Assembly: GCA_963707635.1 (NCBI GenBank)
Contig: OY970173.1
Location: 2,016,001-2,080,000, forward strand
DNA: 64,000 nt
Reading direction: 5' to 3'
Source of the DNA: Candidatus Latescibacterota bacterium
Lineage (GTDB): Bacteria > Krumholzibacteriota > Krumholzibacteriia > WVZY01 > JAKEHA01
This document shows, one piece after another, positions 12,884-45,472 of this stretch (the stretch's first letter is position 1; every line of letters starts with the position of its first letter). The translations under genes were made by a program, and so were the position numbers. Below the pieces are notes generated by a model. It was given only the letters and a program-made list of their open reading frames with translations, searched no databases and was not told where the DNA came from.

Positions 12884-12899
12884 AGCAAGTTACATGCCC
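12884..12899 (-). promoter_or_regulatory. Sigma-54 promoter (-24/-12)
   Basis: Minus strand GGGCATGTAACTTGCT = GG-N10-GC, intergenic, upstream of the GT2-led sub-operon. Confidence 0.7.
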
Positions 12900-12954
12900 G
12901 GGAACGGTACGGGGGGCGAAAGCGGACGCGTGGTTCTGACACCCCACCGGGTGT

Positions 12955-13746
12955 TCAGTACGCGCCCTTGCCGGTGAGAACCACGTAGATCGTCCGGAAG
13001 AGGATCTTCAGGTCCATCCACGGGCTCCAGTTGCGGATGTACACGAGGTCGAAGTGCAGCTTCTGGCGCAGTCCGTCGTCGGTGTTCGTATACCCCAGCG
13101 CGACCTGGGCCAGGCCGGTGATGCCCGGCTTCGTCCGCAGGCGGAGTTGGAACTCCGGAAGGTCCTTCTCGATGCGGCCGATGAAATAGGCGCGCTCGGG
13201 TCGCGGCCCCACGATGCTCATGTCACCGTGGAGCACGTTGATGAACTGCGGGACCTCGTCGATCCGGGTCTTGCGCAGCACACGACCGACGGGGGTGATG
13301 CGGGGGTCCTGCTCCTTTGCCCACAGCGGAGGTGTTCCCCGCTCGGCATCCACGACCATGGTCCGGAACTTATAGATGGTGAACGGGAGCCCGAAATTCA
13401 CCAGCACCCGGCGGTCGCGTCCGCGCCGGCTGGCTTCGACGTCGCTCACGCGGGTCCGACGATCGCGCAACCGCCGGTTGACCCCGACGCGCTCCTGACG
13501 ATAGAACACCGGACCCGGAGAGGTCGACTGGATGAGCGCAGCCGCCACCAGCATGACGGGCGAGAGTATCACCAGCGCGGCGATACTGATTACGACGTCC
13601 AGGGCGCGCTTCCACCCCAGGCGCCCGCGCACGTCATAGGGGTGCCGGGCGGGCCTGTCGACGGCAACGACCGGAATCTCCCGGTCGGCGAGCAGCCAGG
13701 GAAAGCGAACCGGGTTGGGGCGGGCGAAACGGGTTCCGAAAGTCAT
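12955..13746 (-). CDS. Priming sugar transferase (Bac_transf / phosphoglycosyl transferase) with an Arg-rich insertion
   Basis: KRALDVV, YKFRTM, DPRITPVGRVLRKTRIDEVPQF, GDMSIVGPRPER, KPGITGLAQV. Start re-called to 13746 because the track start (13848) overlaps a sigma-54 promoter. Confidence 0.92.
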   Translation of the reverse strand: MTFGTRFARPNPVRFPWLLADREIPVVAVDRPARHPYDVRGRLGWKRALDVVISIAALVILSPVMLVAAALIQSTSPGPVFYRQERVGVNRRLRDRRTRVSDVEASRRGRDRRVLVNFGLPFTIYKFRTMVVDAERGTPPLWAKEQDPRITPVGRVLRKTRIDEVPQFINVLHGDMSIVGPRPERAYFIGRIEKDLPEFQLRLRTKPGITGLAQVALGYTNTDDGLRQKLHFDLVYIRNWSPWMDLKILFRTIYVVLTGKGAY

Positions 13747-13831
13747 CGTCGTACCGGGTTCCGAGTTCGAAAGAAAGGGGGCGGGGTGTGGGACGAAACG
13801 TAAATACAGAACACCCCGCAGGGGCGTTGAG

Positions 13832-13847
13832 AGCATCTTCAATGCCA
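13832..13847 (-). promoter_or_regulatory. Sigma-54 promoter (-24/-12)
   Basis: Minus strand TGGCATTGAAGATGCT, preceded by an AT-rich ~280 bp intergenic region. Confidence 0.7.
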
Positions 13848-14128
13848 CTGGAGCGCTTGCGACCCAGCTGGTTTCGCCGGGCGAACCATGCTCGGTATGG
13901 TGTGTTATTACAATGCGTTAGAGAGCGCGGTGCGAGTGATCTCTACGACGAGCGTGCTAAACGGTGATGGTAGGGTTGGGGCTGAATCGGTTATTTCACC
14001 CAGGCGCAAGCGCCGGCCGCGAAGATAACTACAAGTGATAGATTGTGTTACAGACGCACCGCCGGCCATGGGCGAATGGGGATAATCGCCCATGAAATCA
14101 ACTACTAAGCGGAGGATGGAGCGGGCGT

Positions 14129-15412
14129 CTACTCGGCGACGATCTCGAAAATGTGCCCCGCGCTCTTGTAGCGCTGGCGCTCCTCGTCTGCCTCGTCGAA
14201 CGACCGGAACCGGCCGAGCACCACGCGGTAGTGCCCCGCCACGGACTCGACCTTGGCCGGGATCTTGAGAAGTTCGAGTGCGCGGACCTCGGAGCGCGCG
14301 CTGTCCAGCCACGAGTGCGATCCCGCCACCAGCACGAAGGTGGTCGGCGTCGACTGGGCGCGGCCGGCCCGCGGCGCGATGGGAGCAGGCGCCGGCGCGG
14401 AGGGCGGCACGGGCGGCGCCGTGTCGCCGAGCGGCACGGTTACCGGCGGGCGACGCGAGGGCCCCGCCATGCCGAACGAATACGAAAGCGAGAACGTGTG
14501 TGTGCTCGAGAAATACTCCTGCGGCGTGTAGGCATACTCGATCGCAAAGGCGCTGTAGCGCACGCCGAAGCCGGCGTTGAACGGGGTCTGCGACTGGGCG
14601 TTGTCGAGGTTGTCGTTCAATCCCGTGCGCAGCGTGAACATGGTGTTGATCTGATAGTCGACGCCGAACTGAAGCCGCGTCCCGTACGAGTCCGAGTTGG
14701 CGACCTGGGCGCCGGCATAGAATTGCCCGACCGCCGAGTCGAAGACGCGCCCGCCCCCGACCATCCACTCGGGCGCGATGCTCCAGGTGCCGGACGGGTA
14801 CGAAACCGAGCCGCCGATATCCCGCGCCGCCAGGTGGATCAGATTGCGCCCGATGTGGTATGCCGCTCCGGCGTGGAACGCGTATCCGGTCCCGGTATTC
14901 GGAAAAATGTGCTCCCGCAGGTACGTGGCTCCGACCGCGGCCGAGAGGCCAGTGCCGCGAAAGGCGCGGCTGAGCGTCATGTCGAAGCCGACGTTGTAGT
15001 AGCTCTGTTCCGAGATGGCCGACATCGCGTCGTTGTAGCCGACCAGCCCGCCCGAGTAGAGGAAGGTGCCGCCGATCCCCAGGACCGTGGACCCGTCGCC
15101 GAGCGGAACCGCGACCCCGGCCGCGCTGAAGGTCAGATCGTCCAGCCACTCCGCGGCGGTGATGAAGGCCTGGGTGTGCTCGAGGCCGGAGGTGAACGCC
15201 GGATTCGAGTACATGAGTGATGCATCGGGGCTGAACCCCGCCACCGCATCCGGTGACGACATGAGTCGCGCCCCGACCGGAATCTTGAGGAACGAAGCGG
15301 CGTAGCTGCCCGCGCCGGTCTGGGTTCGGCCGGCGCCGGTCAGGGCCAGGAGTGCGATCAGGGCCAGGCCGGAGACGGCCAGTCCGCGACGGGTAGGTGC
15401 GTAATGTCTCAT
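14129..15412 (-). CDS. PorV/UPF0164-family outer-membrane beta-barrel fused to a C-terminal SPOR domain
   Basis: Signal peptide; ASFLKIPVGAR..S...A...DASLMYSNPA N-terminal signature; alternating beta strands ending THTFSLSYSF; Pro-rich linker; SPOR-like FVLVAGS...YRVVLGRFRSFDEA. Confidence 0.75.
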   Translation of the reverse strand: MRHYAPTRRGLAVSGLALIALLALTGAGRTQTGAGSYAASFLKIPVGARLMSSPDAVAGFSPDASLMYSNPAFTSGLEHTQAFITAAEWLDDLTFSAAGVAVPLGDGSTVLGIGGTFLYSGGLVGYNDAMSAISEQSYYNVGFDMTLSRAFRGTGLSAAVGATYLREHIFPNTGTGYAFHAGAAYHIGRNLIHLAARDIGGSVSYPSGTWSIAPEWMVGGGRVFDSAVGQFYAGAQVANSDSYGTRLQFGVDYQINTMFTLRTGLNDNLDNAQSQTPFNAGFGVRYSAFAIEYAYTPQEYFSSTHTFSLSYSFGMAGPSRRPPVTVPLGDTAPPVPPSAPAPAPIAPRAGRAQSTPTTFVLVAGSHSWLDSARSEVRALELLKIPAKVESVAGHYRVVLGRFRSFDEADEERQRYKSAGHIFEIVAE

Positions 15413-15471
15413 CGAGCCCTTCCCTGCCGTGTCGTTGCGACGATGTCTAGCGGTGGATGCCGTTCGAAATG

Positions 15472-15487
15472 AGCAAACCCGGGGCCA
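15472..15487 (-). promoter_or_regulatory. Sigma-54 promoter (-24/-12)
   Basis: Minus strand TGGCCCCGGGTTTGCT, 60 nt upstream of the PorV-SPOR ATG. Confidence 0.65.
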
Positions 15488-15779
15488 AGGGCCCACCGCG
15501 CAAACCGTTGGTTTCAATCGCAGTCGATAGTATCCGAGGATTCCAAACCAGGGCATGTAATCTCCCTAACAGCCGGCCGTTAGTCGCCGACGGCGGGGCG
15601 GTTCTGCCTCAATCTGCACGGTCTCGCCGTGCAGGCACCATGACGCTTCGACAAACTTTCTGGCGGGGGCGATTTTCAGGGGCCGGCTGGAGCGTTTGCG
15701 GCCGTTGGGCCTGGTTCCAGCCGTCGGGTCGACGCGTCCCGTGCCGACGCGCCCGCCCCGGAGCTGGACCGGAGGGCCA

Positions 15780-17303
15780 TTAGGGGCGACCCTCCATCTC
15801 ATCCAACCGGCGTTGAGCTACTCTCGCATACCGTGTTTCCGGAAAACGCTCAATACATTTCTTCAGCATCGCGACGGCCTTGGGACGGTCGTTCAGCTCC
15901 GTCAAGTAGAGCTCCCCGGCCTTGACCATCCCGGCGGCGGTCGCGTCGTCGTCCCACTCCGGCGTCGCCGAGGCGAGGATCTCCGCCACGTCCCCGGCCC
16001 GCCCGCTCATCACGTAACTGGCCGCCAGGGCCCCCTGCACGGTGAGGCGATCGCCCGCGAACTGGCTGCGCCGGTCGATGAGCGAGAGGTAGTACTCCCG
16101 GGCACGCTCGAGCGCGCGCTCCGCGAGCTCCGTCTCGCCCCGGTCCACGTAGTGGCGCACGATGACCATCGGGGTCTCGATCGCGGCCGCCGAATAGGGG
16201 TAGATCTGCTGCGTGCGCCGCAGCAGCGACAGCGACTCGTCCCAGGAGCCCTGCCGCTCGAGGACCTGGGCGCGCGTCAGCATCGCCCGCGAAACGACCG
16301 CTTCCGGGGCGCCTGGCGCGTCCTCGAGCGCCCGGAACGCCTGCAACGCGCCCGCCTCGTCGCCCCCCTCGAGCTGCAACTCGATCAAGTCGTAACGCGC
16401 GGCGAACGCCGCGTCCGTGTCCGGATACTTCTGGACCACGCCGGCCAGCACCGGCTCCGCGGCGGCGGCGTCCTTGCGAGCGAACGCGTGGATCTCGCCG
16501 AGCAGCAGTTCGAGCCCGGCGGCGTCGGCGGCCAGGCCCGGCGTCGCGATGGCCCCGGCGAGTTCGCGGGCGGCGTCGTCCCATTCGCCGCGCACCATGT
16601 GGAGCTGAATACGTCCCAGACGGGCCTGGTCGGCGCGGGGCGAACCCGGCCACGTGGCCACGACGCGGTCGTAGAACCCGGCCGCGAGGCGGGAGGATTC
16701 GTCGTAGCGCTCGTGGTCGCCGTTCTCCTGGTACATCCTCACCAGCACGATCGGAATGTTGAGAAAGACGTCGTCCAGCTCGACACGCCCGGACCAGAAA
16801 TCGGGGCTCTCGACGATGGCCGAAAACATGCGCGCGCACTGATCCAGCGCCGCGCTGCTTTCGCCCGCCATGTACATCGACCGCGCGGCGCCGAGGCGGG
16901 CTTCCAGCGCGCTGCGCAGCGGGATCGAGCCGCGCTCGACGGTCTCGCGATACATGCTGCCGGCGTCGACGTAGCGCTCGCTCAAGAAGTACAGGTTGGC
17001 GAGCGCGATCCGGGAGGACAGCAGGATGTGTCGAATGTCGTCGACGACGGGTGCGCGCCACGAGTCGGCGCCGGGGTCCGCGAGCGGGTCGTCGGCGACC
17101 ACGCGCTGGTAGGCGTCGATGGCGAGCCGGGTGTCGTTCTGCGACGCCTGCATGAACGAAAGGTTGATCCGGCGCTGAAAGAACTGCGCGCGCCACAAAC
17201 GCCGCTCGAGGTCGTAGCGCGCGCGAACGTCGTCCGTGGGCGCGCACGAGACGACGAGCGGCCACAGCGCCGCGACCCAGAGCCAGCGCGGGTACCGCGT
17301 CAC
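15780..17303 (-). CDS. TPR-repeat lipoprotein
   Basis: Lipobox VVS-C; repeated YfiO/CpoB-like helical motifs (VVATWPGSPRA, VVQKYPDTDAA, CIERFPETRYA). Confidence 0.8.
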   Translation of the reverse strand: MTRYPRWLWVAALWPLVVSCAPTDDVRARYDLERRLWRAQFFQRRINLSFMQASQNDTRLAIDAYQRVVADDPLADPGADSWRAPVVDDIRHILLSSRIALANLYFLSERYVDAGSMYRETVERGSIPLRSALEARLGAARSMYMAGESSAALDQCARMFSAIVESPDFWSGRVELDDVFLNIPIVLVRMYQENGDHERYDESSRLAAGFYDRVVATWPGSPRADQARLGRIQLHMVRGEWDDAARELAGAIATPGLAADAAGLELLLGEIHAFARKDAAAAEPVLAGVVQKYPDTDAAFAARYDLIELQLEGGDEAGALQAFRALEDAPGAPEAVVSRAMLTRAQVLERQGSWDESLSLLRRTQQIYPYSAAAIETPMVIVRHYVDRGETELAERALERAREYYLSLIDRRSQFAGDRLTVQGALAASYVMSGRAGDVAEILASATPEWDDDATAAGMVKAGELYLTELNDRPKAVAMLKKCIERFPETRYARVAQRRLDEMEGRP

Positions 17304-18127
17304 CGCAGGCCGCCTTCCTCGGGCAGCGCGAGCGCGGTGGTGGCGGCAAACAAGAGGTAGGCCGTGAGCACTTCGAGCAGCGCCGATCCGAGCAGCGCGT
17401 AGAAGACGAGCTCGGGCTGAAAACGGGACGCAATGCCGTCCGCGCGCGAGAGCAGCGCGTCGAGCGGGGCATGGACGGCCAGGACCGTGACCACGACCAG
17501 GAGCGTCGGCGCGAAGTTCTGCGCCGCGTATCCGATGCTGGCCCGCACCGCCGGCAACGCTCCCCCGCCGCGCAGACGCAACACGATCGGCGTATAGACC
17601 AGGAACGTTTGCACGCAGGCGGTGACTGCTACGGAGCCCACGACGGCGGCGCGCGCCGGGAGCCCGGTGGGCAGCATGGCGGCGAGAGCGCCCAGGCCGT
17701 AGCCGACCGCGACGCTCGTCCCCACGAACACGACTCCGACTCCCAGCACGTGCGGGAGTGCGGCTCGAAACGAGGGACGCGGGCGCGACCGGCCGACCAC
17801 GTGGTGGTCGACCATGAGCCAGACCCCCGCGCTCCACGCGGCGAAGCCGACGGTGGCCGCCAGCGGCAGGTAGATGCGCTGGTAGACCTCGGGCAACCGC
17901 ACGAAGTGGAGCGGGTAGTGAAGCGAATCGGCGCCGCCCAGCGCCTGCACCACCGGGACCATGAACGAGGCGATGGGACTCGCCGTGAAGAACGCGAGCA
18001 GGACCAGGAGCGCGCACTGCAGCGCGCCGAACGCGGCGAAGGGGACGAACACGCTCGGCGCGCGGAACCCGAGCCGCATGTTCGCGAGTCCGTCGAGGTA
18101 GCTACTGATGGTCTGGGTCAGATTCAT
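17300..18127 (-). CDS. Hypothetical polytopic membrane protein (~6 TM)
   Basis: Multiple hydrophobic segments; overlaps both neighbours. Confidence 0.7.
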   Translation of the reverse strand: MNLTQTISSYLDGLANMRLGFRAPSVFVPFAAFGALQCALLVLLAFFTASPIASFMVPVVQALGGADSLHYPLHFVRLPEVYQRIYLPLAATVGFAAWSAGVWLMVDHHVVGRSRPRPSFRAALPHVLGVGVVFVGTSVAVGYGLGALAAMLPTGLPARAAVVGSVAVTACVQTFLVYTPIVLRLRGGGALPAVRASIGYAAQNFAPTLLVVVTVLAVHAPLDALLSRADGIASRFQPELVFYALLGSALLEVLTAYLLFAATTALALPEEGGLR

Positions 18128-18758
18128 CGCGCTCCCGAAACAACCGTTCGATCTCCGTGTGTACGGTCCGCGCATAGGGCTCGACATGGCGTTGCGCCTG
18201 CGCGATGTCGGACGCAAACGGCGTCGAGATGCTGACGAACGCCACGTCCTGGGGCCGGCGCCTCAGGGCGCGACCGGCGAGCTCGAGCTTCAGCCCCACC
18301 TCGTCGGCGAGGACGCGGTCGCTGGTCTGGTACCAGTAACAGACGATCCGCCGCTCGAAACCGTTGTGCACGACCAGGGCCCGCAACTCGCCGGTCCCCC
18401 ACGGCACCGGCCAGCGCGTTTCCTGCTCGATGTTCCATCCCGAACCCGGGTAGCAGTGCCGGGGCGAGTGGACCTGCGAGCCCTCGCGCTGGCGATCGAA
18501 ATACCCTACGAAGACCCATACAGGCTCGTCCGCATCGGGTTCGTAGGTGCGGTAAAGCACCTCGCGCGCGCGCAGCGCATCGAAGAACTCCGGCTCGAGC
18601 GCCTCGTCGACGTACGCAGGCGCCACCCCGGCCAACCCCGCGCCGGCGAGCCCGAGATCTCCCGGATCCGCGGGTTCGGTGGCGCGCAGCGAATTGCCGG
18701 CGAGGGCCACCACCGCCAGTGCGATGGCGAGCGCTATCTGCGCGCGTGTCCGATCCAC
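18102..18758 (-). CDS. epsI: EpsI family protein (exosortase-associated periplasmic domain)
   Basis: N-terminal TM; VWVFVGYF...QVHSPRHCYPGSGW and YWYQ motifs; directly after the exosortase. Confidence 0.88.
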   Translation of the reverse strand: MDRTRAQIALAIALAVVALAGNSLRATEPADPGDLGLAGAGLAGVAPAYVDEALEPEFFDALRAREVLYRTYEPDADEPVWVFVGYFDRQREGSQVHSPRHCYPGSGWNIEQETRWPVPWGTGELRALVVHNGFERRIVCYWYQTSDRVLADEVGLKLELAGRALRRRPQDVAFVSISTPFASDIAQAQRHVEPYARTVHTEIERLFRERDESDPDHQ

Positions 18759-19579
18759 TCGAGCCCCTTTCCGCCGGCGACCAGGGCCAGAACCCCGGTG
18801 ACGAATACCACGACCCCCGAGAGCTCGTGAAGGAAACTCTGCGCCGCCGCCGGTCCGGCGATGGCCGCGATGCCGGCGGTGAGCGAGAGCCGGGCCACGT
18901 TGGCGCCCACCGCGATGGGAATCACCAGCGCCAGGAACACGAGCCTGCGCACGACGCCGAGTGCGAGCCAGTCCAGCATGAACCACGCGAGTGTGCCCAG
19001 CGTCATGATCGACCGCAGGCCGCTGCAGGCAGCGACGACTTCCAGTGCGTATCCCTCCAGACGAATGACGTTGCCTTCGCGCACGAGCGGCATTCCGGCC
19101 AGGCTCAGGATCTCGGCCGCGATGCGCGAGCTCTCGAGCTGCAGGGGAAAGGTGAGGCGGTAGTACACGAGGTACGGGAGCGGGACCATGCACAACAGAA
19201 ACGCGATCGGATAGGCGAGGACGCGAAAGCGCTCGCGCCCCTCGATCGTGATCACCATCCCGGCCACCACCACCACCAGCGACACCCGCATGGTGAACAG
19301 CTCGGCGGTGAGGAGGCCGAGCAGGTACAGGCAGACGCCGGCGCCGGTGACCCAGAGCCCGGCCCCGTCGACGCGAGCCGCGGCGGCAAGGAAGCGGTGG
19401 CGCCTCCGCCAGGCCAGGACGGCCGCCATGGGGAGCACGAAGAAGCCGTGGGCGTAGTTCGGGTCGTCCGCCCACTGGTGGGCCAGAGACGCCGCTACGA
19501 ACCAGTACGCCGCGGCGAAGGAAAGCAGGAGCAGGATCGACGAAGCAACCGATCGAGGCGCGGGAACGGCGAGCCTCAT
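18734..19579 (-). CDS. Exosortase (EpsH family)
   Basis: W..DPNYAHG, REGNVI, and the catalytic Cys-Arg-His residues in VVAACSGLRS, ANVARL and FLHELSG; ATGA overlap with the upstream gene. Confidence 0.93.
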   Translation of the reverse strand: MRLAVPAPRSVASSILLLLSFAAAYWFVAASLAHQWADDPNYAHGFFVLPMAAVLAWRRRHRFLAAAARVDGAGLWVTGAGVCLYLLGLLTAELFTMRVSLVVVVAGMVITIEGRERFRVLAYPIAFLLCMVPLPYLVYYRLTFPLQLESSRIAAEILSLAGMPLVREGNVIRLEGYALEVVAACSGLRSIMTLGTLAWFMLDWLALGVVRRLVFLALVIPIAVGANVARLSLTAGIAAIAGPAAAQSFLHELSGVVVFVTGVLALVAGGKGLEWIGHARR

Positions 19580-21381
19580 TGCTCCGATTGCACCAGGAAG
19601 CGGCCGGCGGAATGCACCGCGCCCGAGCCGTCCGTGACCCGGACGAGATAGAGCGCCGGCGCCACCCGCTGCCCGGTGTCGTTGGTGAAGTCCCAGGACC
19701 AGGTGAACCCGTCCGCGCTGCTCTGGAAGCGCCGCACCGCGACGCCGGTCGCGTCGAAGATCCTGACCAGCCATGCGCGCGGCAGATTGCGAACCTCGAG
19801 CGGTCGGTGCGGATCGTCGGCCCAGAAGCCGTCCGGCACGATGGCGCCGGTGCTGGATGCAAGGTCCGTCCCGACGGTGAAGGTGAACACCAGCGGCGTG
19901 GCGCAGTTCTGTACCGCAGCGCGGTCGCACGCCTCCACGTCCACGCGGACCTCGGTCCCGCTGCCGAAGGCGGTATCGGGCCGGTAGCGAATTTCGGCGC
20001 TGGTCGGCGTGCCATCGACGGTGAACACGACCGGGGTTCCGTTCACGCGCATTTCCACCGAGGCGAAGTCTATTCCCAGGCCGCCATCGGCGAGCGACAC
20101 CACGAGGGTCGGCCTCGGTTCCACCCCGATCGCACCCGCCCCCGGGCTCACGACCTGAATCGTCGGCGCGGTGACGTCGTTGGCGGCGGCGGAGCCGGTT
20201 CGAAACGTCCAGTTGCGGCTCATCACGTTGGCCGGGTTCGCGCGGTCGGAGGCGGTCATCTCCACCAGCACGTCGGTGTTGGGAGGAAAGTCCGACGCGG
20301 GGTTGCACTGGACCGCGTAGCCGTTGCTGGCGGGTGTGAGCGACGGCGTGATCGCCACTCCGTTTGCCATCACCTGGATGGAGCTGGCGCTCACACCCGT
20401 CTTGTCGTCCGTCAGCACGAAATAGATGTTTGCGTTCAGCGGTACACCGGTCGCCCCCGGCGCCGGCGCCCGCTGGCTGATCGAAGGCGCCGCGACGTCG
20501 GTTCCCTGCGCGACCAGGGTCACCTCGGACGAATAGCCGCTGAACGTGCCTGCACCGGTGTAGGAGCGCACCGCGAAATAGTACGTTCCGGCGGCGAGGG
20601 CGCAACGCGACGCGGTGGTGGTGTTCCCCGCGTCGACCGAATCCGTGTAGGCGGCCTGGCTGCGGCGCCGGGTACCGAAATACATCCGATAGCCGGTGAC
20701 GGTGGGGTCGCTGACCCGGTTCCACGTGACCTGCGCGCAGCCGAGGGTGGGCTCCGTCACTCTCACGTTGGTCGGCGGCACCGGTCCAGCCGTGTTCTGG
20801 TTGCTGATGGTCGTGGTCGAAGGCGCGGATCGCCCGCTCCAGCGGTCGAACGAGTTGTGCGCGCGCAGCGCGAAGTGGTACGTCCCGGTCTGCATTCCAC
20901 AGCGGGTATACGTCGACTGGGTGCCGTTCTTGACGATGTCGAGCCGGTCGATCGACAACGAGTCGGTGTAGACGCCCGGATTACCGCCCCAGAGCAGCGT
21001 GTAGTCGGTCACGTAGTCGGTGACCGCGGCGCTATTCCAGCGCAGGACCACACAGCCGTCGGTGCTCCCGGTGGCGACCAGTCCCGCGGGGACGGCCGGG
21101 GTGACGGGCTGGATGCCGGTGAGGGTAAACACGTAGACGTCGCCGGTCTGGGTGACATCTTCGAGCGTGATCGACGTGGCCGGGCTGGCGACCTGGCTGC
21201 CCGCCGCAGCCCCGTTCTTCCGGATGTTGTAGTTGCCGGCCGGCGCCAGATCGAAGATCAGGAATTGCGTGTTGCCCGCCGCGGGTTGCGATCCTGCGGA
21301 TGCCTTGCCGGCGGCGTGTGTGCTTGCCGCGGCGACGACGAGCGCCACGAACAGAACGATCGAGAATGCATGACGGACCAT
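19576..21381 (-). CDS. Secreted fibronectin-III/Ig-repeat protein with a C-terminal FlgD-Ig / T9SS-type sorting domain
   Basis: Signal peptide; two FnIII repeats (LRWN...DYTLLWG...YHFALRAHN; VTWN...GYRMYFG...YYFAVRSY); two Big_5-like repeats; C-terminus VRIFDATGVAVRRF...WDFTNDTGQRVAPALYLVRV. Confidence 0.8.
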   Translation of the reverse strand: MVRHAFSIVLFVALVVAAASTHAAGKASAGSQPAAGNTQFLIFDLAPAGNYNIRKNGAAAGSQVASPATSITLEDVTQTGDVYVFTLTGIQPVTPAVPAGLVATGSTDGCVVLRWNSAAVTDYVTDYTLLWGGNPGVYTDSLSIDRLDIVKNGTQSTYTRCGMQTGTYHFALRAHNSFDRWSGRSAPSTTTISNQNTAGPVPPTNVRVTEPTLGCAQVTWNRVSDPTVTGYRMYFGTRRRSQAAYTDSVDAGNTTTASRCALAAGTYYFAVRSYTGAGTFSGYSSEVTLVAQGTDVAAPSISQRAPAPGATGVPLNANIYFVLTDDKTGVSASSIQVMANGVAITPSLTPASNGYAVQCNPASDFPPNTDVLVEMTASDRANPANVMSRNWTFRTGSAAANDVTAPTIQVVSPGAGAIGVEPRPTLVVSLADGGLGIDFASVEMRVNGTPVVFTVDGTPTSAEIRYRPDTAFGSGTEVRVDVEACDRAAVQNCATPLVFTFTVGTDLASSTGAIVPDGFWADDPHRPLEVRNLPRAWLVRIFDATGVAVRRFQSSADGFTWSWDFTNDTGQRVAPALYLVRVTDGSGAVHSAGRFLVQSEQ

Positions 21382-21593
21382 GATCCACCCCCGGCCGCGC
21401 GCCGGCGGCACGCCTTGGGAATCATCGAATCGAATCGACGCCAACTTGTTACAGAGCTTGAGTCGCGACGGTCAGGGGCTGCAAGAACCGTGCACGGCGG
21501 CCGGGGCTGGGCCCGCACGTGACCGAGACACACCATTGGAGATTCCGCCGGGGAGGTCAAGGAGAATGTCGGCGTAATTCCCCGGCGTTCCGC

Positions 21594-21615
21594 GGCCCCG
21601 GGTGGGACCGGGGCC
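21594..21615 (-). terminator. GC-rich hairpin just after a stop codon (terminator or stabiliser candidate)
   Basis: GGCCCCGG-N6-CCGGGGCC, 5 nt downstream of the 21621 stop; no U-tract. Confidence 0.35.
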
Positions 21616-21620
21616 CCTCG

Positions 21621-22784: not shown

Positions 22785-22788
22785 GCGG

Positions 22789-25396: not shown

Positions 25397-25398
25397 GG

Positions 25399-32749: not shown

Positions 32750-32920
32750 CGCATGCTCCTTACGTCGTCGATCGCGACGGGGCCTGGAGGGACGCGCGCG
32801 GACAGGGATCGCGCGTGTTCCCCGGAGGCGTTCGTCATCTCCCCGCAGGCCATCGCGGCCATGGGGTCGGCATCGAACGCCGCTATCGGATCAGTCACTG
32901 GGTGAATTCCGGGGCGAATC

Positions 32921-32937
32921 TGCAAGCCGTGTACCAA
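32921..32937 (-). promoter_or_regulatory. Sigma-54 promoter (-24/-12)
   Basis: Minus strand TTGGTACACGGCTTGCA upstream of the 1230-aa gene. Confidence 0.7.
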
Positions 32938-33063
32938 GTTACACATGACAGCCCGACGGCACGATTCACCGCCATGAGGCGCACGGCAATGCGCAAAAGA
33001 TGACGCGGGGCGGCACGATCTGCAATCTATTTTATTCGACGGTCCCGCGCGCGAGCGGCGGGC

Positions 33064-35228: not shown

Positions 35229-35230
35229 GG

Positions 35231-38492: not shown

Positions 38493-38517
38493 GGACGCGC
38501 GCGACCTGCGGGAACGC

Positions 38518-39222: not shown

Positions 39223-39224
39223 GG

Positions 39225-40901
39225 TCAGGGGGCTGGAGTCGTCGTGGTCGACTGCTCGTTGAGGTTGAGGTCGATCATCTGCTCGCGGGCCGTCTTGCCG
39301 TAGAAATAGAATCCGGCCAGGGCGACGCCGAGGAACACGACCGACGTGGCCGTCCACACCACCGCGCGTTTGCGGGCGGAGTCGTGGAACCACTTGGTCT
39401 TCTCGAAGCGTGGGATCGTGCCCAGCACCTTCATGCCCAGCTGCTTCTCGATCTCGTCCACCGAGCGGAACGACGAGTCGGTGAACTCGGTGAGCAGCAG
39501 GCCCGACGCGCCGATGGCGGCGCCGAACAGAAACGCCAGCACCAGGATTTTCATGCGGTCGGGGCGCACCGGGGCCAGCGGGCGGCTCGCCGCTTCGACC
39601 AGGAACACCGACGCGCCCAGTTCGGTGTCCTGCGCGGCCTCGCTGATCTGGGTGCTGGTCTGCGCGCTCTGGAAGGTGTTGAACACCGAGCGATTGTGCT
39701 CGACCTCCTGGCGCAGGCGCGCCAGCTCGCTCTCCATTTCGGGCGCCAGCGCCACCTGGGACCGAAACGCCGCAATGTAGGAGTCCAGCTTGGTGCGCTT
39801 GCCGCGCAGCGCGTTGACTTCCACACGCTGGTAGAAGTACTCGACCACCAGCGGGCGGTAGTCGGCCGGCACGTTCGCAAAGCGCTCCCCGACTAGGCGC
39901 CCGAGGCGGCGCTGCAGGGCCTGCTGCGTCGTCGTGATCGCATCCGCGTTGCTGCCCCCGCCGGGGGCAGCCACGGTAGCGCTCAGTTCCGCGAGCAATT
40001 CGGACTCGCGCCGCATGCCCAGGTCGTTTTCGAGCTTGCGAACTTCGGGGTCGCGGAACACGCGATCCCCGTCCGGAACCTCGCCCAGGATCGCCACCAC
40101 CTGCGCGCGGATCCGCTCCAGGGTATCGTCGGCGCCGCTGATGGTCAGGTCGAGGTCGGCGTGGACGCGTTCTGACAGCGCCACGTTGGTCTGGTTCACG
40201 GGGTTGGTGGCGACACTCGGCGCGGACAGGCGCTCCTGAAAATTCGCCAGCTCGCGCTCGGAGTGGTCCAGGCGCTCCTTGTAGACCGCCAACTGCTCCT
40301 CGCTGAACTGGCTGACTTCTTTCAGCCCCCGCATCGTCTGCCGGTGCTGCATGTCGATGTACAGCCGCGTAATCGCCTCCGCCACCACGTAGCACGCTTC
40401 CGGATTGGCGTCGGCGTACGCGAGGCGATACATGTTGGGGCCTTCGCGGTCGATGCTGATGCGCCGCTTGAGGAAGTTACGCAGCCGCCGCATGACGAGT
40501 TCTTCGCTCGTGATGCCGGGGTAGAGGTGCTCGCGCTCGTAGTCGGCGATCTCGATCAGCTCCGGGTCCTGGTCCATGCCGAGGCGCCGGATCAACTCGT
40601 CGAGGAACGCGCTGCCGAGGATGTCGGCCTCGAGCTGGGCGCCGAATTCCGCCTCGCGGCGGCGGGAATCGGTCTGGACGAAGCGGTTGACCTCGCTCTG
40701 CACCTGCGACGCGTCGCCGAGGCGGATGACCGAGCTGGACTCGTACTCGGGCACCAGAAAGCGCACCCCGATGTTCGAAACCACCACGGAGATGACGAGC
40801 GGGACGACGAGGAAGTACTTCTTGCGCCAGATGACGCGCAGGTACTCGCCCAGGTTGAGCCTGAAACCGACTTCCTGATCTTGCGGGGTGATCTTGCGCA
40901 C
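39225..40901 (-). CDS. Polysaccharide chain-length determinant (Wzz/GumC; Wzc N-terminal part)
   Basis: Two TM segments flanking a coiled coil; YLRVIWRKKY, PLAPVRP, DSSFRSVDEIE..LGMKVLGTIP. Confidence 0.88.
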   Translation of the reverse strand: MRKITPQDQEVGFRLNLGEYLRVIWRKKYFLVVPLVISVVVSNIGVRFLVPEYESSSVIRLGDASQVQSEVNRFVQTDSRRREAEFGAQLEADILGSAFLDELIRRLGMDQDPELIEIADYEREHLYPGITSEELVMRRLRNFLKRRISIDREGPNMYRLAYADANPEACYVVAEAITRLYIDMQHRQTMRGLKEVSQFSEEQLAVYKERLDHSERELANFQERLSAPSVATNPVNQTNVALSERVHADLDLTISGADDTLERIRAQVVAILGEVPDGDRVFRDPEVRKLENDLGMRRESELLAELSATVAAPGGGSNADAITTTQQALQRRLGRLVGERFANVPADYRPLVVEYFYQRVEVNALRGKRTKLDSYIAAFRSQVALAPEMESELARLRQEVEHNRSVFNTFQSAQTSTQISEAAQDTELGASVFLVEAASRPLAPVRPDRMKILVLAFLFGAAIGASGLLLTEFTDSSFRSVDEIEKQLGMKVLGTIPRFEKTKWFHDSARKRAVVWTATSVVFLGVALAGFYFYGKTAREQMIDLNLNEQSTTTTPAP

Positions 40902-40921
40902 TTCGGAAACCGCCCGAACGC

Positions 40922-41953
40922 CTACTGCGGGGTCGTGTCGGCCTGGACCTCGTTCTGAATCGTGTAGTACAGGAGCACCATCGTGCCCAGCGCGGTGATG
41001 AAGCCCACGATCAGGCTCGCCTCCTGGGAGGTGAACCCCTTCTTGCCGATGTTCACCGTGTCGCCGGCGAGGATCTTGGGATTCTGCGACTGGTCGCCAT
41101 TCTCGATGAACTTCTTGAGGTCGAGCTTCGTGGTCTGGGCGGTGCCGTCCTTCTCCGGCCGGATGAGGCGGATATCGCCCAGGTTGCCCCGCTCGCTGGG
41201 CCCGCCGGCCGCCAGCAGCGCGCTCATCAGGTCCTGGCGCGACTGGAGGCGGTACACCCCGGGCTTGAGCACGGCGCCCAGCACGTTGACCCCCATCGCG
41301 CCCGTATAGGCTTCCTCCTGGCCGGGGACCAGCACCGTGTCACCCGGTTTGAGGATCGGTAGCGTCTCGACGGAGCCCTTTTCGAGCGCGGCCTGGACGT
41401 CGACCACGAAGGTGGCCCCGCCGCGGGTGCGGTCCTGGATGACGCGGACACCGCTCATGGTGGCGGTGGGCATGGGGCCGCCCGCCTCGCGGATCGCCTC
41501 CCAGACATTGACCGCTTCGGCGAAGCTGTACTTGCCCGGGAGCTTGACGTCGCCGGTGACGAAGATCACGTTGCTGGACGCACGCGTGACGGAGACCTCG
41601 ATCCGGCTCACGCTCGGGTAGTACTCGCGCAGCGCCTGCAGCAGCCGCGACTGGATCTCGCTCGCGGTCAGTCCGCGCACGGCCACGGGCCCCACCAGCG
41701 GCAAGGTGATTTCGCCCTTCGCGTCGATCACCAGCTCACGGTTCAGGTCGGGCCGCTGCGGCACCGCCAGGAACAGCCGGTCACCCGGTCCGACCCGGTA
41801 GTCGGCGGGCATGCCCTGCGTCGACGTCTGCGGCGCCTGCGTCTGCGCGCGCGGCGCGGTGACGCCGAGCGCGGCGGCTGTGTAGCTGAACGCGACCCAC
41901 GCCACGAGGGCGCGGCCCGCGGGCGTCTTCAGAAGCAGCATGACCCGGTTCAC
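40922..41953 (-). CDS. Polysaccharide export protein (Wza-like; Poly_export + SLBB domains)
   Basis: DYRVGPGD, GEITLPLVG..VRGLT, VTGDVKLPG, LGAVLKPG; GTG start after AAGGAGG. Confidence 0.88.
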   Translation of the reverse strand: MNRVMLLLKTPAGRALVAWVAFSYTAAALGVTAPRAQTQAPQTSTQGMPADYRVGPGDRLFLAVPQRPDLNRELVIDAKGEITLPLVGPVAVRGLTASEIQSRLLQALREYYPSVSRIEVSVTRASSNVIFVTGDVKLPGKYSFAEAVNVWEAIREAGGPMPTATMSGVRVIQDRTRGGATFVVDVQAALEKGSVETLPILKPGDTVLVPGQEEAYTGAMGVNVLGAVLKPGVYRLQSRQDLMSALLAAGGPSERGNLGDIRLIRPEKDGTAQTTKLDLKKFIENGDQSQNPKILAGDTVNIGKKGFTSQEASLIVGFITALGTMVLLYYTIQNEVQADTTPQ

Positions 41954-41964
41954 CTCGGCCTCCT

Positions 41965-42915
41965 TCAGCGCAGCGCGCTCGAGCCTGCCTGCTGGTACCA
42001 CTGCACGGTGCGCTCGATGCCTTCCTCGAACGGCACCTCGATTTCGTAGCCCAGCTCCCGCCGGATGCGGTCGATCGACGCCATCGAGTGCTTCACGTCG
42101 CCGGGCCGCGGCGGGCCGTATACCGGTTCGAGCTGCGACCCCACGCGCGCACGCAGCGCCCGGTAGAGCTGGTTGAGGGTGTAGCGCCCGCCGCACGCGA
42201 TGTTGTACACACGCGGCCCCGTCAGGTTCGCCTCGCACGCCTGCAGGTTGGCGTTCACCACATTGCTGATATAGGTGAAGTCGCGCGACTGCTCCCCGTC
42301 GCCGTGGATGGTCGGGGGGTGGCCTTCGAGCAGCGCCTTGACGAACAGCGGGATCACGGCGCTGTACTGCGAGTTCGGGTCCTGGCGCGGCCCGAACACG
42401 TTGAAATAGCGGAGCGACACCGTGGTCATGCCGTGGAGCTCCCCGAAGACCCGGCAGTAGTGCTCCGCTGCGAGCTTCGCCACCGCGTACGGGGACTTGG
42501 GATTCGGCGTCATGCTCTCCACCTTGGGCAGTTCCTCGCTGTCCCCGTACACCGACGACGACGACGCGTAGACGACCCGCTTGACTCCGTGCTGCTGCGC
42601 CGCCACCAGCACGTTGAGCGTGCCCTGGACATTGACCTGGTTGTTCGCCGACGGGTCCGTGATGGAGCGGGGCACGGACGCAAGCGCCGCCTGGTGCAGC
42701 ACGAAGTCGACGCCCCGCACCGCGCGGTCGACGATCTCCGCGTCGCGCACGTCGCCGCGCACGAGCTCGATGCGTTCCAGCGCGTGCTGAAGATTCTCCT
42801 CGCGGCCGGTGGCGAAGTTGTCGAGCACGCGCACCGCGTGGCCGCGACGGAGCAGTTCGTCGACGAGGTTGGAGCCGATGAACCCCGCGCCGCCGGTCAC
42901 CAGATACTTGGCCAT
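41965..42915 (-). CDS. UDP-HexNAc(A) 4-epimerase (WbpP/TviC-like SDR)
   Basis: TGGAGFIGS, HQAALASVPRS, SPYAVAK, RYFNVFGPRQDP. Confidence 0.9.
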   Translation of the reverse strand: MAKYLVTGGAGFIGSNLVDELLRRGHAVRVLDNFATGREENLQHALERIELVRGDVRDAEIVDRAVRGVDFVLHQAALASVPRSITDPSANNQVNVQGTLNVLVAAQQHGVKRVVYASSSSVYGDSEELPKVESMTPNPKSPYAVAKLAAEHYCRVFGELHGMTTVSLRYFNVFGPRQDPNSQYSAVIPLFVKALLEGHPPTIHGDGEQSRDFTYISNVVNANLQACEANLTGPRVYNIACGGRYTLNQLYRALRARVGSQLEPVYGPPRPGDVKHSMASIDRIRRELGYEIEVPFEEGIERTVQWYQQAGSSALR

Positions 42916-42958
42916 TCCCATCCTCTTCCTCGTGGCGCCGCCCGTGGACCCGCCAGAG

Positions 42959-44260
42959 TTACAGGCGGACGATCTTGTCGGACTGGACACCGTTGTAGAT
43001 GTTACGAGTATCGACCACCACCGGCACGTGCGCGAGCAGTGCCTGATAGTCGACGCCCTCGTGGCCGGTGATCACCACCGCGCAGTCGAACGACGACATG
43101 GTCTTGGGCGTGAGCTCGACGGCCGGAACCTCCGCGTGCACGACCTCGGGGTCGTGCGGATCGGCGAAGCGGTCGTGGTAGGCGACCTCGGCGCCGTGCT
43201 TCTTCAACAGGCGCATCACGTCCAGCGACGGCGACTCGCGCACGTCGTCGATATTCGCCTTGTAGGAGACGCCGACCACCAGCACCCGCGAACCGTTGAG
43301 CGCCTTGCGCTGCCGGTTCAACGCTTCCGTCACCCGGTTCACCACGTACTCGGGCATCGAACCGTTGATCTGCCCCGCCAGCTCGATGAAGCGCGCCTCG
43401 AAACCGGCCAGCTTCGCCTTCCACGACAGATAGAACGGGTCGATGGGGATGCAGTGCCCGCCGAGTCCCGGGCCCGGGTAGAACGGCATGAAGCCGAACG
43501 GCTTGGTGGCCGCGGCGCGAATCACTTCCCACACGTCGATGTCCATCTTGTTGCACATCAGCGCGATCTCGTTGACCAACCCGATGTTGACGCTGCGAAA
43601 CGTGTTCTCGAGCAGTTTCACCGTCTCGGCGACTTTCGCCGAGCTGACCGGCACCACCGTCGAAAGCGCGGAGGCGTACAGCGCGGACGCGACTTCGGTG
43701 CACCGCGGGGTAACCCCGCCCACCACCTTGGGAATGTTCTTGGTGTTGAAGCGCGGATTACCCGGGTCGACGCGTTCGGGCGAGAAGGCCAGGAAGAAGT
43801 GCTCCCCCACCCGGAAGTCGTCCTCCGCGAGCATGGGGAGGATCACTTCCTCGGTCGTGCCCGGGTACGTGGTCGATTCCAGCACCACCAGCAGGTCCCG
43901 GTGCTTGTACTTCCGTATCTCCTCGACGGAGGCGACGATGTAGGAAATATCCGGGTCGCGGGTCTTCCGCAGCGGCGTGGGGACGCAGATGTTGACGGTA
44001 TCGCACTGCTTGATCACGGAGAAATCGGTGGTGGCGGACAGGCGGCCCGCCGTCACCACTTCCTTGAGCAGCGCCGACGGAACGTCCTTGATGTAGCTGT
44101 CGCCCTCGTTCACGCGCCGGACTTTCTCCTCTACCACGTCGATGCCGACGGCGGTGAATCCGGCGCGCGCGAGTTCGACCGCGAGCGGCAGGCCGACGTA
44201 GCCGAGGCCGATCACGGCAACGCGCGCGTCGCGCGAGCGAATTCGATCGATCACAGACAT
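42959..44260 (-). CDS. UDP-N-acetylhexosamine dehydrogenase (WbpA/WecC family)
   Basis: GLGYVGLP, ESTTYPG, FSPERVDPG, GLGGHCIPIDP, DVRESP. Confidence 0.92.
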   Translation of the reverse strand: MSVIDRIRSRDARVAVIGLGYVGLPLAVELARAGFTAVGIDVVEEKVRRVNEGDSYIKDVPSALLKEVVTAGRLSATTDFSVIKQCDTVNICVPTPLRKTRDPDISYIVASVEEIRKYKHRDLLVVLESTTYPGTTEEVILPMLAEDDFRVGEHFFLAFSPERVDPGNPRFNTKNIPKVVGGVTPRCTEVASALYASALSTVVPVSSAKVAETVKLLENTFRSVNIGLVNEIALMCNKMDIDVWEVIRAAATKPFGFMPFYPGPGLGGHCIPIDPFYLSWKAKLAGFEARFIELAGQINGSMPEYVVNRVTEALNRQRKALNGSRVLVVGVSYKANIDDVRESPSLDVMRLLKKHGAEVAYHDRFADPHDPEVVHAEVPAVELTPKTMSSFDCAVVITGHEGVDYQALLAHVPVVVDTRNIYNGVQSDKIVRL

Positions 44261-44346
44261 GCAGGGATTCCTTTCACGACCCGGAGGAGCCTAAACGGAC
44301 CGCCGCGCGCGGACAAGGTCTCATTTGGAGCGGAGCCCAACCCCCG

Positions 44347-45384
44347 TCAGGCCATCTCCTCGATCAGGCTCTCGGTGGTCACGACGCTGTTCTTGCCGCC
44401 GCGCTTGGCCTGATACAGGGCCTTGTCGGCGGCGTCGATGATCTCTTTCGCGGTCTGGCCGTCGCGCGGAAACGAGGATATCCCGGCGCTGCATGTGATC
44501 AGGCCGGCGTGCTGGCCGTCGAACTTGTGGGCCTGCACGCCTTCCACCACGCGCTGGGTCACCTTCTCCGCGCCGGCCAGGCGGGTCTGCGGCAACAGGA
44601 CGCCGAACTCGTCGCCGCCATACTTGCTCACGAAGTCGATTTCGCGGGAGCTGGCGCGGATGATGGCGGCGATGTCCTTGAGCACCTGGCTGCCGCTCAA
44701 GTGGCCATGGCGGTCGTTGTAGGCCTTGAGGTTGTCGACGTCCAGCATCACGAACGAGAACGACTGGCGAAAACGCCGCGCGCGCTTGATCTCGCCCTCG
44801 AGCGACGACATCAGGAAACGATAGTTGTAGACCCCGGTCAACCCGTCGGTGACGGCCTCCATCTCGAGTTTCTGGTACAGCGTGGCGTTCTCCACCGCGA
44901 TCGCCGCCTGGTTCGCCAGCAAGGTGAGCAGCTGCACGTCGTCGGTGGAGTACATGGCGCCGTCGCGGTGGATGGCGATCAACAGGCCGAACATGGACTT
45001 CTTGGCGACGAGCGGGGCGCTGATGATCACGCGGTTGGTGCCTTCGTCGCCGAGCGAGCGTGCGAGCATGGGGACGTCCACCCCGAGCTCGCGGCCACGC
45101 TGCATCGGATCCGCGTCGGTTTCCTTGATCATCCACCCCACCAGACCCGCGCTCTCGTCGACGGTTTCGACCTTGGGCTCGGGTCCGGAGCGGTCGCGGG
45201 TGTAGCGCACGATGTGGCCATCCTCGACCTCGAGCAGATGGATCTTGTCCGCGTCGAGGACGCGAATTGCGCAGTCGAGCACCTTGCGGAAGATCAGGTG
45301 CCGGTCATGGCCGGCGACGATCAGGCTCGTAATCTCGGAGAGGGTCGAGAACAGGACGTCACGATTTCTTATAATCTTCTTCAT
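44347..45384 (-). CDS. GAF-GGDEF diguanylate cyclase
   Basis: GAF domain, TDGLTGVYN, intact GGDEF, and an RxxD I-site (REID) five residues upstream. Confidence 0.92.
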   Translation of the reverse strand: MKKIIRNRDVLFSTLSEITSLIVAGHDRHLIFRKVLDCAIRVLDADKIHLLEVEDGHIVRYTRDRSGPEPKVETVDESAGLVGWMIKETDADPMQRGRELGVDVPMLARSLGDEGTNRVIISAPLVAKKSMFGLLIAIHRDGAMYSTDDVQLLTLLANQAAIAVENATLYQKLEMEAVTDGLTGVYNYRFLMSSLEGEIKRARRFRQSFSFVMLDVDNLKAYNDRHGHLSGSQVLKDIAAIIRASSREIDFVSKYGGDEFGVLLPQTRLAGAEKVTQRVVEGVQAHKFDGQHAGLITCSAGISSFPRDGQTAKEIIDAADKALYQAKRGGKNSVVTTESLIEEMA

Positions 45385-45456
45385 GCCAACGTCTTACGAT
45401 TTAGTAGTGACAAGATACATTGGTGGCGGCACCCGGACAACCGTTCTGTTCGAGGC

Positions 45457-45472
45457 AGCAAGTCGCATGCCA
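45457..45472 (-). promoter_or_regulatory. Sigma-54 promoter (-24/-12)
   Basis: Minus strand TGGCATGCGACTTGCT, ~70 nt upstream of the GGDEF gene at the head of the locus. Confidence 0.75.

What the first reader, a model, noticed from the sequence alone, without database searches (positions are those of the whole stretch)
12884..45472. Five canonical sigma-54 promoters partition the glycan locus, whose last genes encode a sigma-54 activator and its kinase
Seen: GG-N10-GC elements on the coding strand in five of the larger intergenic gaps: 45457-45472 TGGCATGCGACTTGCT, 32921-32937 TTGGTACACGGCTTGCA, 15472-15487 TGGCCCCGGGTTTGCT, 13832-13847 TGGCATTGAAGATGCT and 12884-12899 GGGCATGTAACTTGCT. Each lies 60-170 nt before a start codon. 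Established: PrsK/PrsR plus sigma-54 sites accompany proteobacterial PEP-CTERM/exosortase systems. Inference: the kinase/regulator at 1144-4615 drives the locus. Because it ends the sub-operon that starts at 12884, it may form a positive feedback loop.
Basis: partly seen in the sequence, partly recalled or inferred. Interest (0 to 1): 0.7.

Follow-up and report, generated by a model that had tools for sequence, protein, structure and literature searches.

The report
One activator, one of five promoters
Five sigma-54 promoter motifs really lie in this surface-sugar gene cluster of an uncultured Krumholzibacteriota bacterium, but only the one in front of the gene predicted to start sugar-chain synthesis carries a conserved palindrome pair that the neighbouring activator likely binds, so the cluster is probably run by several inputs rather than one master switch.

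Summary
All five motifs are present on the minus strand at the stated places; rpoN and 14 full activators are in the genome. Three sites score strongly, two weakly, but four are positionally conserved in relatives. The kinase/regulator is not PrsK/PrsR (cut-offs missed, no TTTACA box). Footprinting found a paired 16-bp palindrome TG(G/C)G-N8-C(C/G)CA only at the 13832 promoter of the WcaJ-like priming transferase. It recurs beside unrelated activators with the same recognition helix and, in 40 held-out relatives, upstream of wcaJ (18 of 32) or at the kinase start (11 of 32), but not at the DGC, ugd or lptE controls. So the regulator likely drives wcaJ; the other four promoters lack the box in this genome. 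Feedback, if any, would come by read-through from 13832, not 12884, where a sigma-70-like promoter also lies. The transferase carries a conserved arginine insert resembling a known c-di-GMP-binding peptide. No RNA data were available. The scan noted a similar multi-promoter locus in an Eisenbacteria genome (e1-5041494). New variant of a known kind; interest 0.5.

The parts
45457..45472 (-). Sigma-54 -24/-12 motif before the GAF-GGDEF diguanylate cyclase and the ugd-epimerase-wza-wzc run; strong, no regulator box in this genome
   Evidence: 18.9; 30 of 30
45484..45508 (-). IHF-like TAAC-N17-GTTA element just upstream of the DGC promoter (IHF identity is my inference)
   Evidence: score 8 or more in 21 of 30
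44347..45384 (-). GAF-GGDEF diguanylate cyclase with a GGDEF active site
32921..32937 (-). Sigma-54 motif before a 1230-aa secreted beta-helix/Ig/heparinase-like protein; patchy cargo gene
   Evidence: 18.1; 5 of 6
21480..21495 (-). Candidate sixth, non-canonical sigma-54-like element (TG for GG), preceded by a sigma-70-like TTGACC-N17-AATGGT at 21532-21560
15472..15487 (-). Sigma-54 motif (TTGGCC variant) before the PorV-like/SPOR gene; a different conserved upstream element (GTGCA core, about 130 nt upstream of the motif)
   Evidence: 8.1; 20 of 23
14077..14092 (.). Distal regulator box, 16-bp palindrome (about -256 to -271 from the predicted start site 13821)
14026..14050 (-). IHF-like element between the two boxes
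13987..14002 (.). Proximal regulator box (about -166 to -181)
13896..13920 (-). IHF-like element between proximal box and promoter
13832..13847 (-). Sigma-54 motif with a weak -12 half, before the WcaJ-like priming transferase; the one promoter with the box pair
   Evidence: 6.8; 29 of 31
12955..13746 (-). Small phosphoglycosyl transferase (Bac_transf; WbaP/PglC relatives in PDB)
13408..13479 (-). [quoted passage not shown]
   Evidence: (63 of 64 orthologs have two or more D/E/N-RR units)
12884..12899 (-). Strong sigma-54 motif after wcaJ, before the GT2...wzm-wzt-kinase-regulator run; no box
   Evidence: 16.4; 26 of 32
12868..12892 (-). TAAC-N17-NCTA element overlapping the -12 half of the 12884 motif (IHF-like; 15 of 17 genus members)
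12814..12842 (-). Sigma-70-like promoter TTGCGT-N17-CATTCT, conserved in the genus; candidate basal promoter of the downstream run
2537..4615 (-). Sensor kinase: two N-terminal hydrophobic helices, GAF, PAS, HisKA, HATPase; four conserved cysteines in the GAF (C240, C246, C266, C269; 3809-3898)
1144..2565 (-). NtrC-type activator (receiver, AAA+ with GAFTDA, Fis-type HTH with helix RDKLRYR)
651..1175 (-). lptE, followed outside the window by holA and leuS in the same tight run

Best explanation
The five motifs are likely real sigma-54 promoters with different wiring: the adjacent kinase/regulator pair is predicted to bind two palindromes at 13987-14092 and, through an IHF-assisted loop, to switch on only the weak-core promoter at 13832, which makes the priming phosphoglycosyl transferase, while the other four promoters, which lack that box here, likely answer to other activators. 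Steps: (1) the motifs, their spacing and their conservation are shown; (2) the box pair and its restriction to the wcaJ promoter are shown by footprinting; (3) that this regulator binds the box is inferred from helix-to-box co-occurrence in other phyla, from the box sitting on the kinase's own start in other families, and from the absence of the nearest rival activator in genomes that keep the box; (4) DNA looping by IHF follows from general knowledge of sigma-54 promoters; (5) positive feedback would need read-through from wcaJ into the kinase-regulator run and is inferred only; a sigma-70-like promoter at 12814-12842 would give the basal expression that lptE, holA and leuS need; (6) c-di-GMP from the cyclase at the head of the locus may act on the transferase through its arginine insert, untested.
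For: Spacing-specific genome-wide enrichment; rpoN over cut-off; positional conservation. Box pair at fixed offsets in 29 orthologous regions from genus to class. Among 116 loci with an activator gene, mostly from other phyla, 18 had a sigma-54 core right after the gene: the 7 with an R[DEA]x[LIV]RY helix scored the box at mean z 2.53, the other 11 at 0.09 (p 0.002). A motif learned only from those 7 foreign regions matches the wcaJ motif (r 0.76) and, scanned over the five promoters, gives z above 2 in 14 of 29 wcaJ regions (best hits mostly at the two footprinted offsets), 2 of 28 DGC, 0 of 26 post-wcaJ, 0 of 19 porV, 0 of 5 big-gene regions. In 40 further genomes not used for training, the box (score 11 or more) was upstream of wcaJ in 18 of 32 (0.6 expected) and at the kinase start in 11 of 32 (0.5 expected), against 0 of 10 DGC, 0 of 12 ugd, 0 of 35 lptE, 0 of 4 porV, 1 of 23 wza. 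The helix reads RDK[LF]RYR in 26 of 26 orthologs and in no other of the 14 activators of this genome. The nearest rival activator (genome position 2921951) had no ortholog of 60% identity or more in 20 of 40 relatives, among them G001, G018, G019, G020, G027 and G038 (91-99% complete), which keep the boxes. wcaJ directly precedes the kinase in G023, G025, G026, G038, G040 and most held-out genomes. IHF-like element near 12 of 59 sigma-54 promoters against 40 of 609 control gaps (p 0.001); three HU/IHF genes.
Against: No transcript or binding data. The helix class was defined after seeing, 5 of the 7 class loci were already seen there, and kin are not independent. One class locus (L223) has no box. 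13 of the 40 held-out genomes show the box at neither place, and families f3 and f6 lack it in the fetched region although they keep the helix. A box-like site scores 14 at the rival activator's own promoter in this genome. A box-like site lies inside the ORF upstream of the DGC promoter in 5 of 30 genomes (G018, G019, G021, G022, G028), so the regulator may reach that promoter in some lineages, and enhancers can act from far away (PMC4641369 passages). The IHF-like element fits the recalled E. coli consensus only partly. Rho is present, so read-through can be cut without an intrinsic terminator.
Confidence: 0.68

Rival explanations
1. One reading: the one regulator drives all five promoters and closes a positive loop through the 12884 promoter.
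For: All five sites lie in one locus that ends in the pair, and the order DGC...wcaJ...kinase-regulator is class-wide; in G028, G032 and G033 the DGC promoter is the only scored sigma-54 promoter before the pair; 12884 is about 1.1 kb downstream of the boxes, within reach of some enhancers (general knowledge); box-like sites upstream of the DGC promoter in 5 of 30 genomes.
Against: No box at four promoters in this genome; porV has its own conserved upstream element; about 60 strong sigma-54 promoters and 14 activators are in the genome; the 12884 motif is missing in 6 of 32 relatives, four of which have a sigma-70-like promoter there.
Confidence: 0.13
2. The 12884 motif is not an activating promoter but a poised or repressive sigma-54 site, occluded by the overlapping IHF-like element, and the downstream run is driven by the sigma-70-like promoter; there is then no sigma-54 loop at all unless wcaJ transcripts read through. 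This is compatible with the box assignment.
For: TAAC-N17-NCTA overlaps the -12 half in 15 of 17 genus members; a conserved TTGC-N17/18-CATNCT follows and the same layout with a canonical -10 lies between wcaJ and the regulator in G036; no upstream box.
Against: The core is among the best-scoring in the genome and persists outside the genus without the overlapping element; the conserved downstream element could instead be a downstream enhancer, as described for a Desulfovibrio flagellar activator (PMC4641369 passages).
Confidence: 0.3
3. The palindrome pair is bound by another activator with a related helix (for example the paralog at genome position 2921951), and the adjacent pair only sits in the locus by linkage to lptE-holA.
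For: A box-like site lies upstream of a sigma-54 core beside that paralog in this genome; the motif resembles the published AtoC site (PMC3118216, Table 2 passage), so related helices read related boxes.
Against: The paralog is not found in several near-complete genomes that keep the boxes; its orthologous promoters score the box lower (0.8-8.3); the box sits at the kinase start in 11 of 32 held-out genomes.
Confidence: 0.08
4. The two weak motifs (13832, 15472) are chance matches.
For: Scores 6.8 and 8.1; about 0.6 such hits expected in the window's gaps.
Against: Same place and GG-N10-GC spacing in 29 of 31 and 20 of 23 genomes while flanks diverge.
Confidence: 0.03

Closest known systems
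PrsK/PrsR/PrsT with the PEP-CTERM box (Haft et al. 2006, PMC1569441; passages and section 7 read)
   Same: NtrC-type activator and kinase in tandem inside an exopolysaccharide/exosortase locus; sigma-54 motif about 70 nt before the start codon.
   Different: All three families miss their cut-offs; the kinase has two hydrophobic helices plus GAF and PAS; the box is a TG(G/C)G-N8-C(C/G)CA palindrome 166-271 nt upstream, not a motif ending TTTACA about 63 nt upstream; the inferred target is a biosynthetic gene, not PEP-CTERM genes.
AtoS/AtoC of E. coli (PMC3118216, passages)
   Same: Best NCBIfam hits for both proteins; PAS-containing kinase; published motif 2 for the AtoC site contains a similar TGC/A-T-rich core; a candidate second target here is malate synthase, also acetate-related.
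   Different: Scores far below cut-off (463 vs 714; 281 vs 646); no ato operon in the fetched neighbourhood; cysteine-bearing GAF domain.
EpsI/Nla24 of Myxococcus xanthus (PMC4877007, passages) and the Desulfovibrio exopolysaccharide regulons DVU0110/DVUA0057 (PMC4641369, passages)
   Same: NtrC-like activator encoded in a polysaccharide locus; c-di-GMP tied to polysaccharide output; several sigma-54 promoters of cell-exterior genes without an identifiable enhancer.
   Different: No orthology was tested; there c-di-GMP binds the activator, here the candidate site is in the priming transferase.
CleD-derived c-di-GMP-sequestering peptide, DRR-x11-(R/K)RxxD (PMC7382256, passages)
   Same: The transferase insert reads DRR-x9-RRxxD in this genome; some orthologs have 11 residues between the two halves.
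   Different: Host protein is a phosphoglycosyl transferase, the spacer is mostly 9 in the genus, the tyrosines of the peptide are absent, and binding is untested.

Membership tests
Sigma-54-dependent promoter | GG-N10-GC with exact spacing, above background | tested here: met
   three strong, two weak but conserved
Sigma-54-dependent promoter | rpoN in the genome | tested here: met
   TIGR02395 463 bits, cut-off 277
Sigma-54-dependent promoter | Activator with GAFTGA-type loop and HTH | tested here: met
   14 full activators; the window's has GAFTDA and a Fis HTH
Sigma-54-dependent promoter | Upstream activating sequence | tested here: inconclusive
   clear at 13832; a different element at 15472; none found at 45457, 32921, 12884 in this genome
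Sigma-54-dependent promoter | rpoN-dependent start site 12 nt after GC | not testable with these tools
   no RNA holder was listed
PrsK/PrsR PEP-CTERM regulatory system | Regulator over TIGR02915 cut-off | tested here: not met
   384 vs 502.6; six paralogs in the genome score higher, none passes
PrsK/PrsR PEP-CTERM regulatory system | Kinase over TIGR02916 cut-off | tested here: not met
   about 90 vs 300, kinase core only
PrsK/PrsR PEP-CTERM regulatory system | PrsT (TIGR02917) | tested here: not met
   best 118 vs 312
PrsK/PrsR PEP-CTERM regulatory system | Motif 1 ending TTTACA upstream of the sigma-54 motif | tested here: not met
   0 exact matches in the window, either strand
PrsK/PrsR PEP-CTERM regulatory system | Exosortase and PEP-CTERM genes present | tested here: met
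   exosortase TIGR02602 170 vs 106 and EpsI in the locus; one PEP-CTERM match elsewhere in the genome
AtoS/AtoC | NCBIfam equivalog cut-offs | tested here: not met
[quoted passage not shown] | DRR-x11-(R/K)RxxD sequence | tested here: inconclusive
   DRR-x9-RRxxD here; two or more D/E/N-RR units in 63 of 64 orthologs; the strict count could not be run
[quoted passage not shown] | Measured c-di-GMP binding | not testable with these tools
   needs ITC or pull-down

The most novel reading that the evidence does not exclude
A phylum-wide envelope circuit in Krumholzibacteriota: a kinase with a four-cysteine GAF domain (metal or redox sensing) activates an RDKLRYR-helix regulator that switches on the committed step of surface-glycan synthesis and the glyoxylate shunt, controls its own operon (read-through activation here, promoter-overlapping repression in other families), while the priming phosphoglycosyl transferase is itself a c-di-GMP receptor through an inserted arginine loop fed by the cyclase at the head of the locus.
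Probability: 0.2. Interest if true: 0.78.

Novelty: new variant of a known kind. Interest (0 to 1): 0.5.

Why it matters
Sigma-54 control of surface-polysaccharide genes is well known, so the bare observation is ordinary. What is added is a testable regulator-to-site assignment for a phylum with no regulatory data in the library searched, a helix-to-palindrome rule that appears to hold in Acidobacteria, Chloroflexi and others, a non-PrsR way of controlling an exosortase-type glycan locus at its committed step, and a candidate c-di-GMP-binding loop in a priming phosphoglycosyl transferase, for which my searches (listings only) showed no precedent. All can be tested with purified proteins and reporters without culturing the organism.

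Tried and rejected
PrsK/PrsR/PrsT identity and the TTTACA box: rejected. One shared upstream box for all five promoters: de novo searches upstream of the DGC and 12884 sites returned only coding-sequence conservation; the DNA upstream of the DGC promoter is tRNA-Arg plus two small conserved ORFs. An activator without an HTH that could fire box-less promoters from solution: all 14 have an HTH-like C-terminus by eye. The first 15-bp form of the box was replaced by the 16-bp form. Box-like hits 390-520 nt upstream of the DGC promoter lie in coding DNA. The candidate target at genome position 2576695 was not followed in relatives. Intrinsic terminators: none called in the gap between wcaJ and GT2; calls in the region were at chance level. 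Sequencing runs: no RNA holder listed. Rfam: only two tRNAs and 6S RNA. The structure model of the GAF region (mean pLDDT 85) matched only generic GAF domains and says nothing on the ligand. Which of the three HU/IHF genes are IHF was not determined. The script machine was lost, so the strict count of the c-di-GMP motif and its proteome background were not obtained. In one search seven rows had a slicing error (lengths far above the intended window) and were ignored; one search had two such porV rows (G006, G009); one search repeats the scan with bounds.
Full report
Setting. The window lies in a closed 3.2-Mb genome. Named homologs point to Candidatus Krumholzibacteria. All genes of the locus are on the minus strand: recN, tRNA-Arg, two small ORFs, a GAF-GGDEF cyclase, nucleotide-sugar enzymes, wza/wzc/tyrosine kinase, glycosyltransferases, a large secreted protein, O-antigen ligase, exosortase and EpsI, a TPR protein, a PorV-like protein, a small WcaJ-like transferase, a second sugar cassette with wzm/wzt, the kinase, the regulator, lptE, holA and leuS. 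Gene calls in the genome come from my own codon model.

Observation. rpoN passes its cut-off; 14 full activators exist. The strict pattern is found 36 times in 1461 upstream gaps against 1.4 in shuffles, only at the right spacing. A matrix trained outside the window finds about 60 strong promoters genome-wide and scores the five sites 18.9, 18.1, 8.1, 6.8 and 16.4. In relatives, a core was found at the orthologous place in 30 of 30 (DGC), 5 of 6 (big gene), 20 of 23 (porV), 29 of 31 (wcaJ) and 26 of 32 (post-wcaJ) genomes, with permissive thresholds of 10, 4, 3, 2 and 5 and this genome included.

Not PrsK/PrsR. The regulator scores 384 against a cut-off of 502.6 and is seventh among the genome's activators; the kinase matches the core only; PrsT is not found over cut-off; TTTACA, the end of Haft's motif 1 (PMC1569441, section 7 read), does not occur in the window. 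The gene order cyclase-ugd-epimerase-[cargo]-wcaJ-[cargo]-kinase-regulator-lptE-holA holds across the class, with the cargo varying from nothing to 45 kb.

Promoter anatomy. The porV-wcaJ gap shows two palindromes at fixed offsets, two TAAC-N17-GTTA elements and the sigma-54 core (21 genomes aligned). The palindrome is 16 bp, TG(G/C)G-N8-C(C/G)CA; in the window it lies at 14077-14092 and 13987-14002, and the only other match with one mismatch is inside pheS. The TAAC-N17-GTTA element is enriched near sigma-54 promoters generally (12 of 59 vs 40 of 609), which suits IHF rather than a specific activator; the name IHF rests on my recall of its consensus. The DGC promoter has that element but only about 50 nt of non-coding DNA. 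porV has a different conserved element. The 12884 core is overlapped by a TAAC-N17-NCTA element in 15 of 17 genus members and followed by a sigma-70-like promoter; TTG-N-TANNNT promoters stand directly before the kinase or regulator in G023, G025, G027, G035, G036 and G038.

Who binds the box. (a) Only the window's regulator has the helix RDKLRYR among the 14, invariant in 26 of 26 orthologs. (b) In 80 named loci, mostly from other phyla, helix similarity tracked the box score at the nearest promoter (34 loci with a promoter, rho 0.46). With 37 more loci and 3, 116 loci were usable and 18 had a core right after the activator: 7 of the helix class gave mean z 2.53, 11 others 0.09. The class was defined, n is small and kin are not independent. 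(c) The motif learned from those 7 foreign regions finds the wcaJ boxes (14 of 29 with z above 2) and not the other promoters (2 of 28, 0 of 26, 0 of 19, 0 of 5). (d) In 40 held-out genomes chosen for long contigs from the 85 with a match, the box is upstream of wcaJ in 18 of 32 and at the kinase start in 11 of 32, with 1 hit in 84 control windows; 13 of 40 have it at neither place. In families f4 and f7 it abuts or overlaps the kinase's own promoter, a repressor-like position. (e) The nearest rival is not found in several near-complete genomes that keep the boxes. A further candidate target, the malate synthase gene, has a sigma-54 core in 16 of 23 fetched loci and a box scoring 8 or more in 13 of those 16.

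Mechanism. Shown: motifs, conservation, box placement, gene order. Inferred: the phosphorylated regulator binds the two boxes and activates the weak-core promoter at 13832 through an IHF bend, turning on the enzyme that starts lipid-linked glycan synthesis (family assignment). The DGC, big-gene, porV and 12884 promoters have no identified activator; in Desulfovibrio 23 sigma-54 operons likewise lacked a predicted enhancer, mostly for cell-exterior genes (PMC4641369, passages). Feedback would need read-through from wcaJ over 8 kb to the kinase; no terminator was called in the gap after wcaJ and wcaJ abuts the kinase in many relatives, but Rho is present and there are no RNA data.

Two extras. 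The kinase GAF domain has four cysteines, two invariant and two at 90% or more in 52 aligned orthologs, in a region that folds as a GAF. The transferase has an arginine insert absent from the Pfam match (split at that point) with two or more D/E/N-RR units in 63 of 64 orthologs; here it reads DRR-x9-RRxxD, close to the DRR-x11-(R/K)RxxD motif shown to bind c-di-GMP in a CleD-derived peptide (PMC7382256, passages). With a cyclase heading the locus this suggests a second, allosteric input; it is a lead only.

Literature seen. PMC1569441: passages and section 7. PMC4641369, PMC3118216, PMC9850573, PMC4877007, PMC7382256: passages only; no supplements opened, and the motif tables in the supplements of PMC4641369 and PMC3118216 may already list a similar box. 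PMC9850573 reports that in Aquincola RpoN1 controls a PEP-CTERM gene but apparently not the polysaccharide genes, unlike the wiring inferred here. Searches (listings only) showed no paper on this regulator, this box in Krumholzibacteriota, or a c-di-GMP-binding priming transferase; the library lacks most subscription papers.

Verdict. New variant of a known kind; interest 0.5.

Noticed in passing
window 13408-13479: [quoted passage not shown]
   Followed up: partly
window 3809-3898: C-x5-C-x19-C-x2-C insert in the kinase GAF domain, conserved in 52 orthologs; candidate metal or redox sensor.
   Followed up: partly
L247:681-2297 (genome 2698080): Malate synthase gene with a conserved sigma-54 promoter and the same box 91-155 nt upstream; candidate second target.
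   Followed up: partly
window 21480-21560: Conserved TG-for-GG sigma-54-like element 40 nt after a sigma-70-like promoter, before a secreted Ig/fn3/FlgD protein.
   Followed up: partly
L036, L002-L004, L005-L007 and other genus loci, wcaJ 5' leader: Two conserved GC hairpins in the wcaJ leader of about half the genus members, absent in this genome; possible RNA element.
   Followed up: no
window 45525-46163: tRNA-Arg(CCG) followed by two small conserved membrane ORFs (about 68 and 110 aa; the first ends in a conserved YEIEDA-Y/F-EE motif) between recN and the cyclase.
   Followed up: partly
window 14129-15412 and 19576-21381: PorV-family barrel fused to a SPOR domain, and an FlgD-Ig-tailed secreted protein, inside an exosortase locus: type IX-like and exosortase sorting parts side by side.
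   Followed up: no
window 55265-55722: The RNase Y gene is present only as two short pieces (N-terminal about 76 aa, C-terminal about 79 aa) next to 6S RNA (55806-55985); the middle appears to be missing.
   Followed up: no
genome 2248412-2265399 (outside the window): Type IV pilus genes carry at least four strong sigma-54 promoters; the pilin promoter core is nearly identical to the DGC promoter core.
   Followed up: no
L061 (G010) and L032-L033: In G010 the secreted Ig protein gene runs directly into the porV-like gene with exosortase, EpsI and TPR genes missing; exosortase is also missing from the locus in G014, G025 and G035.
   Followed up: no
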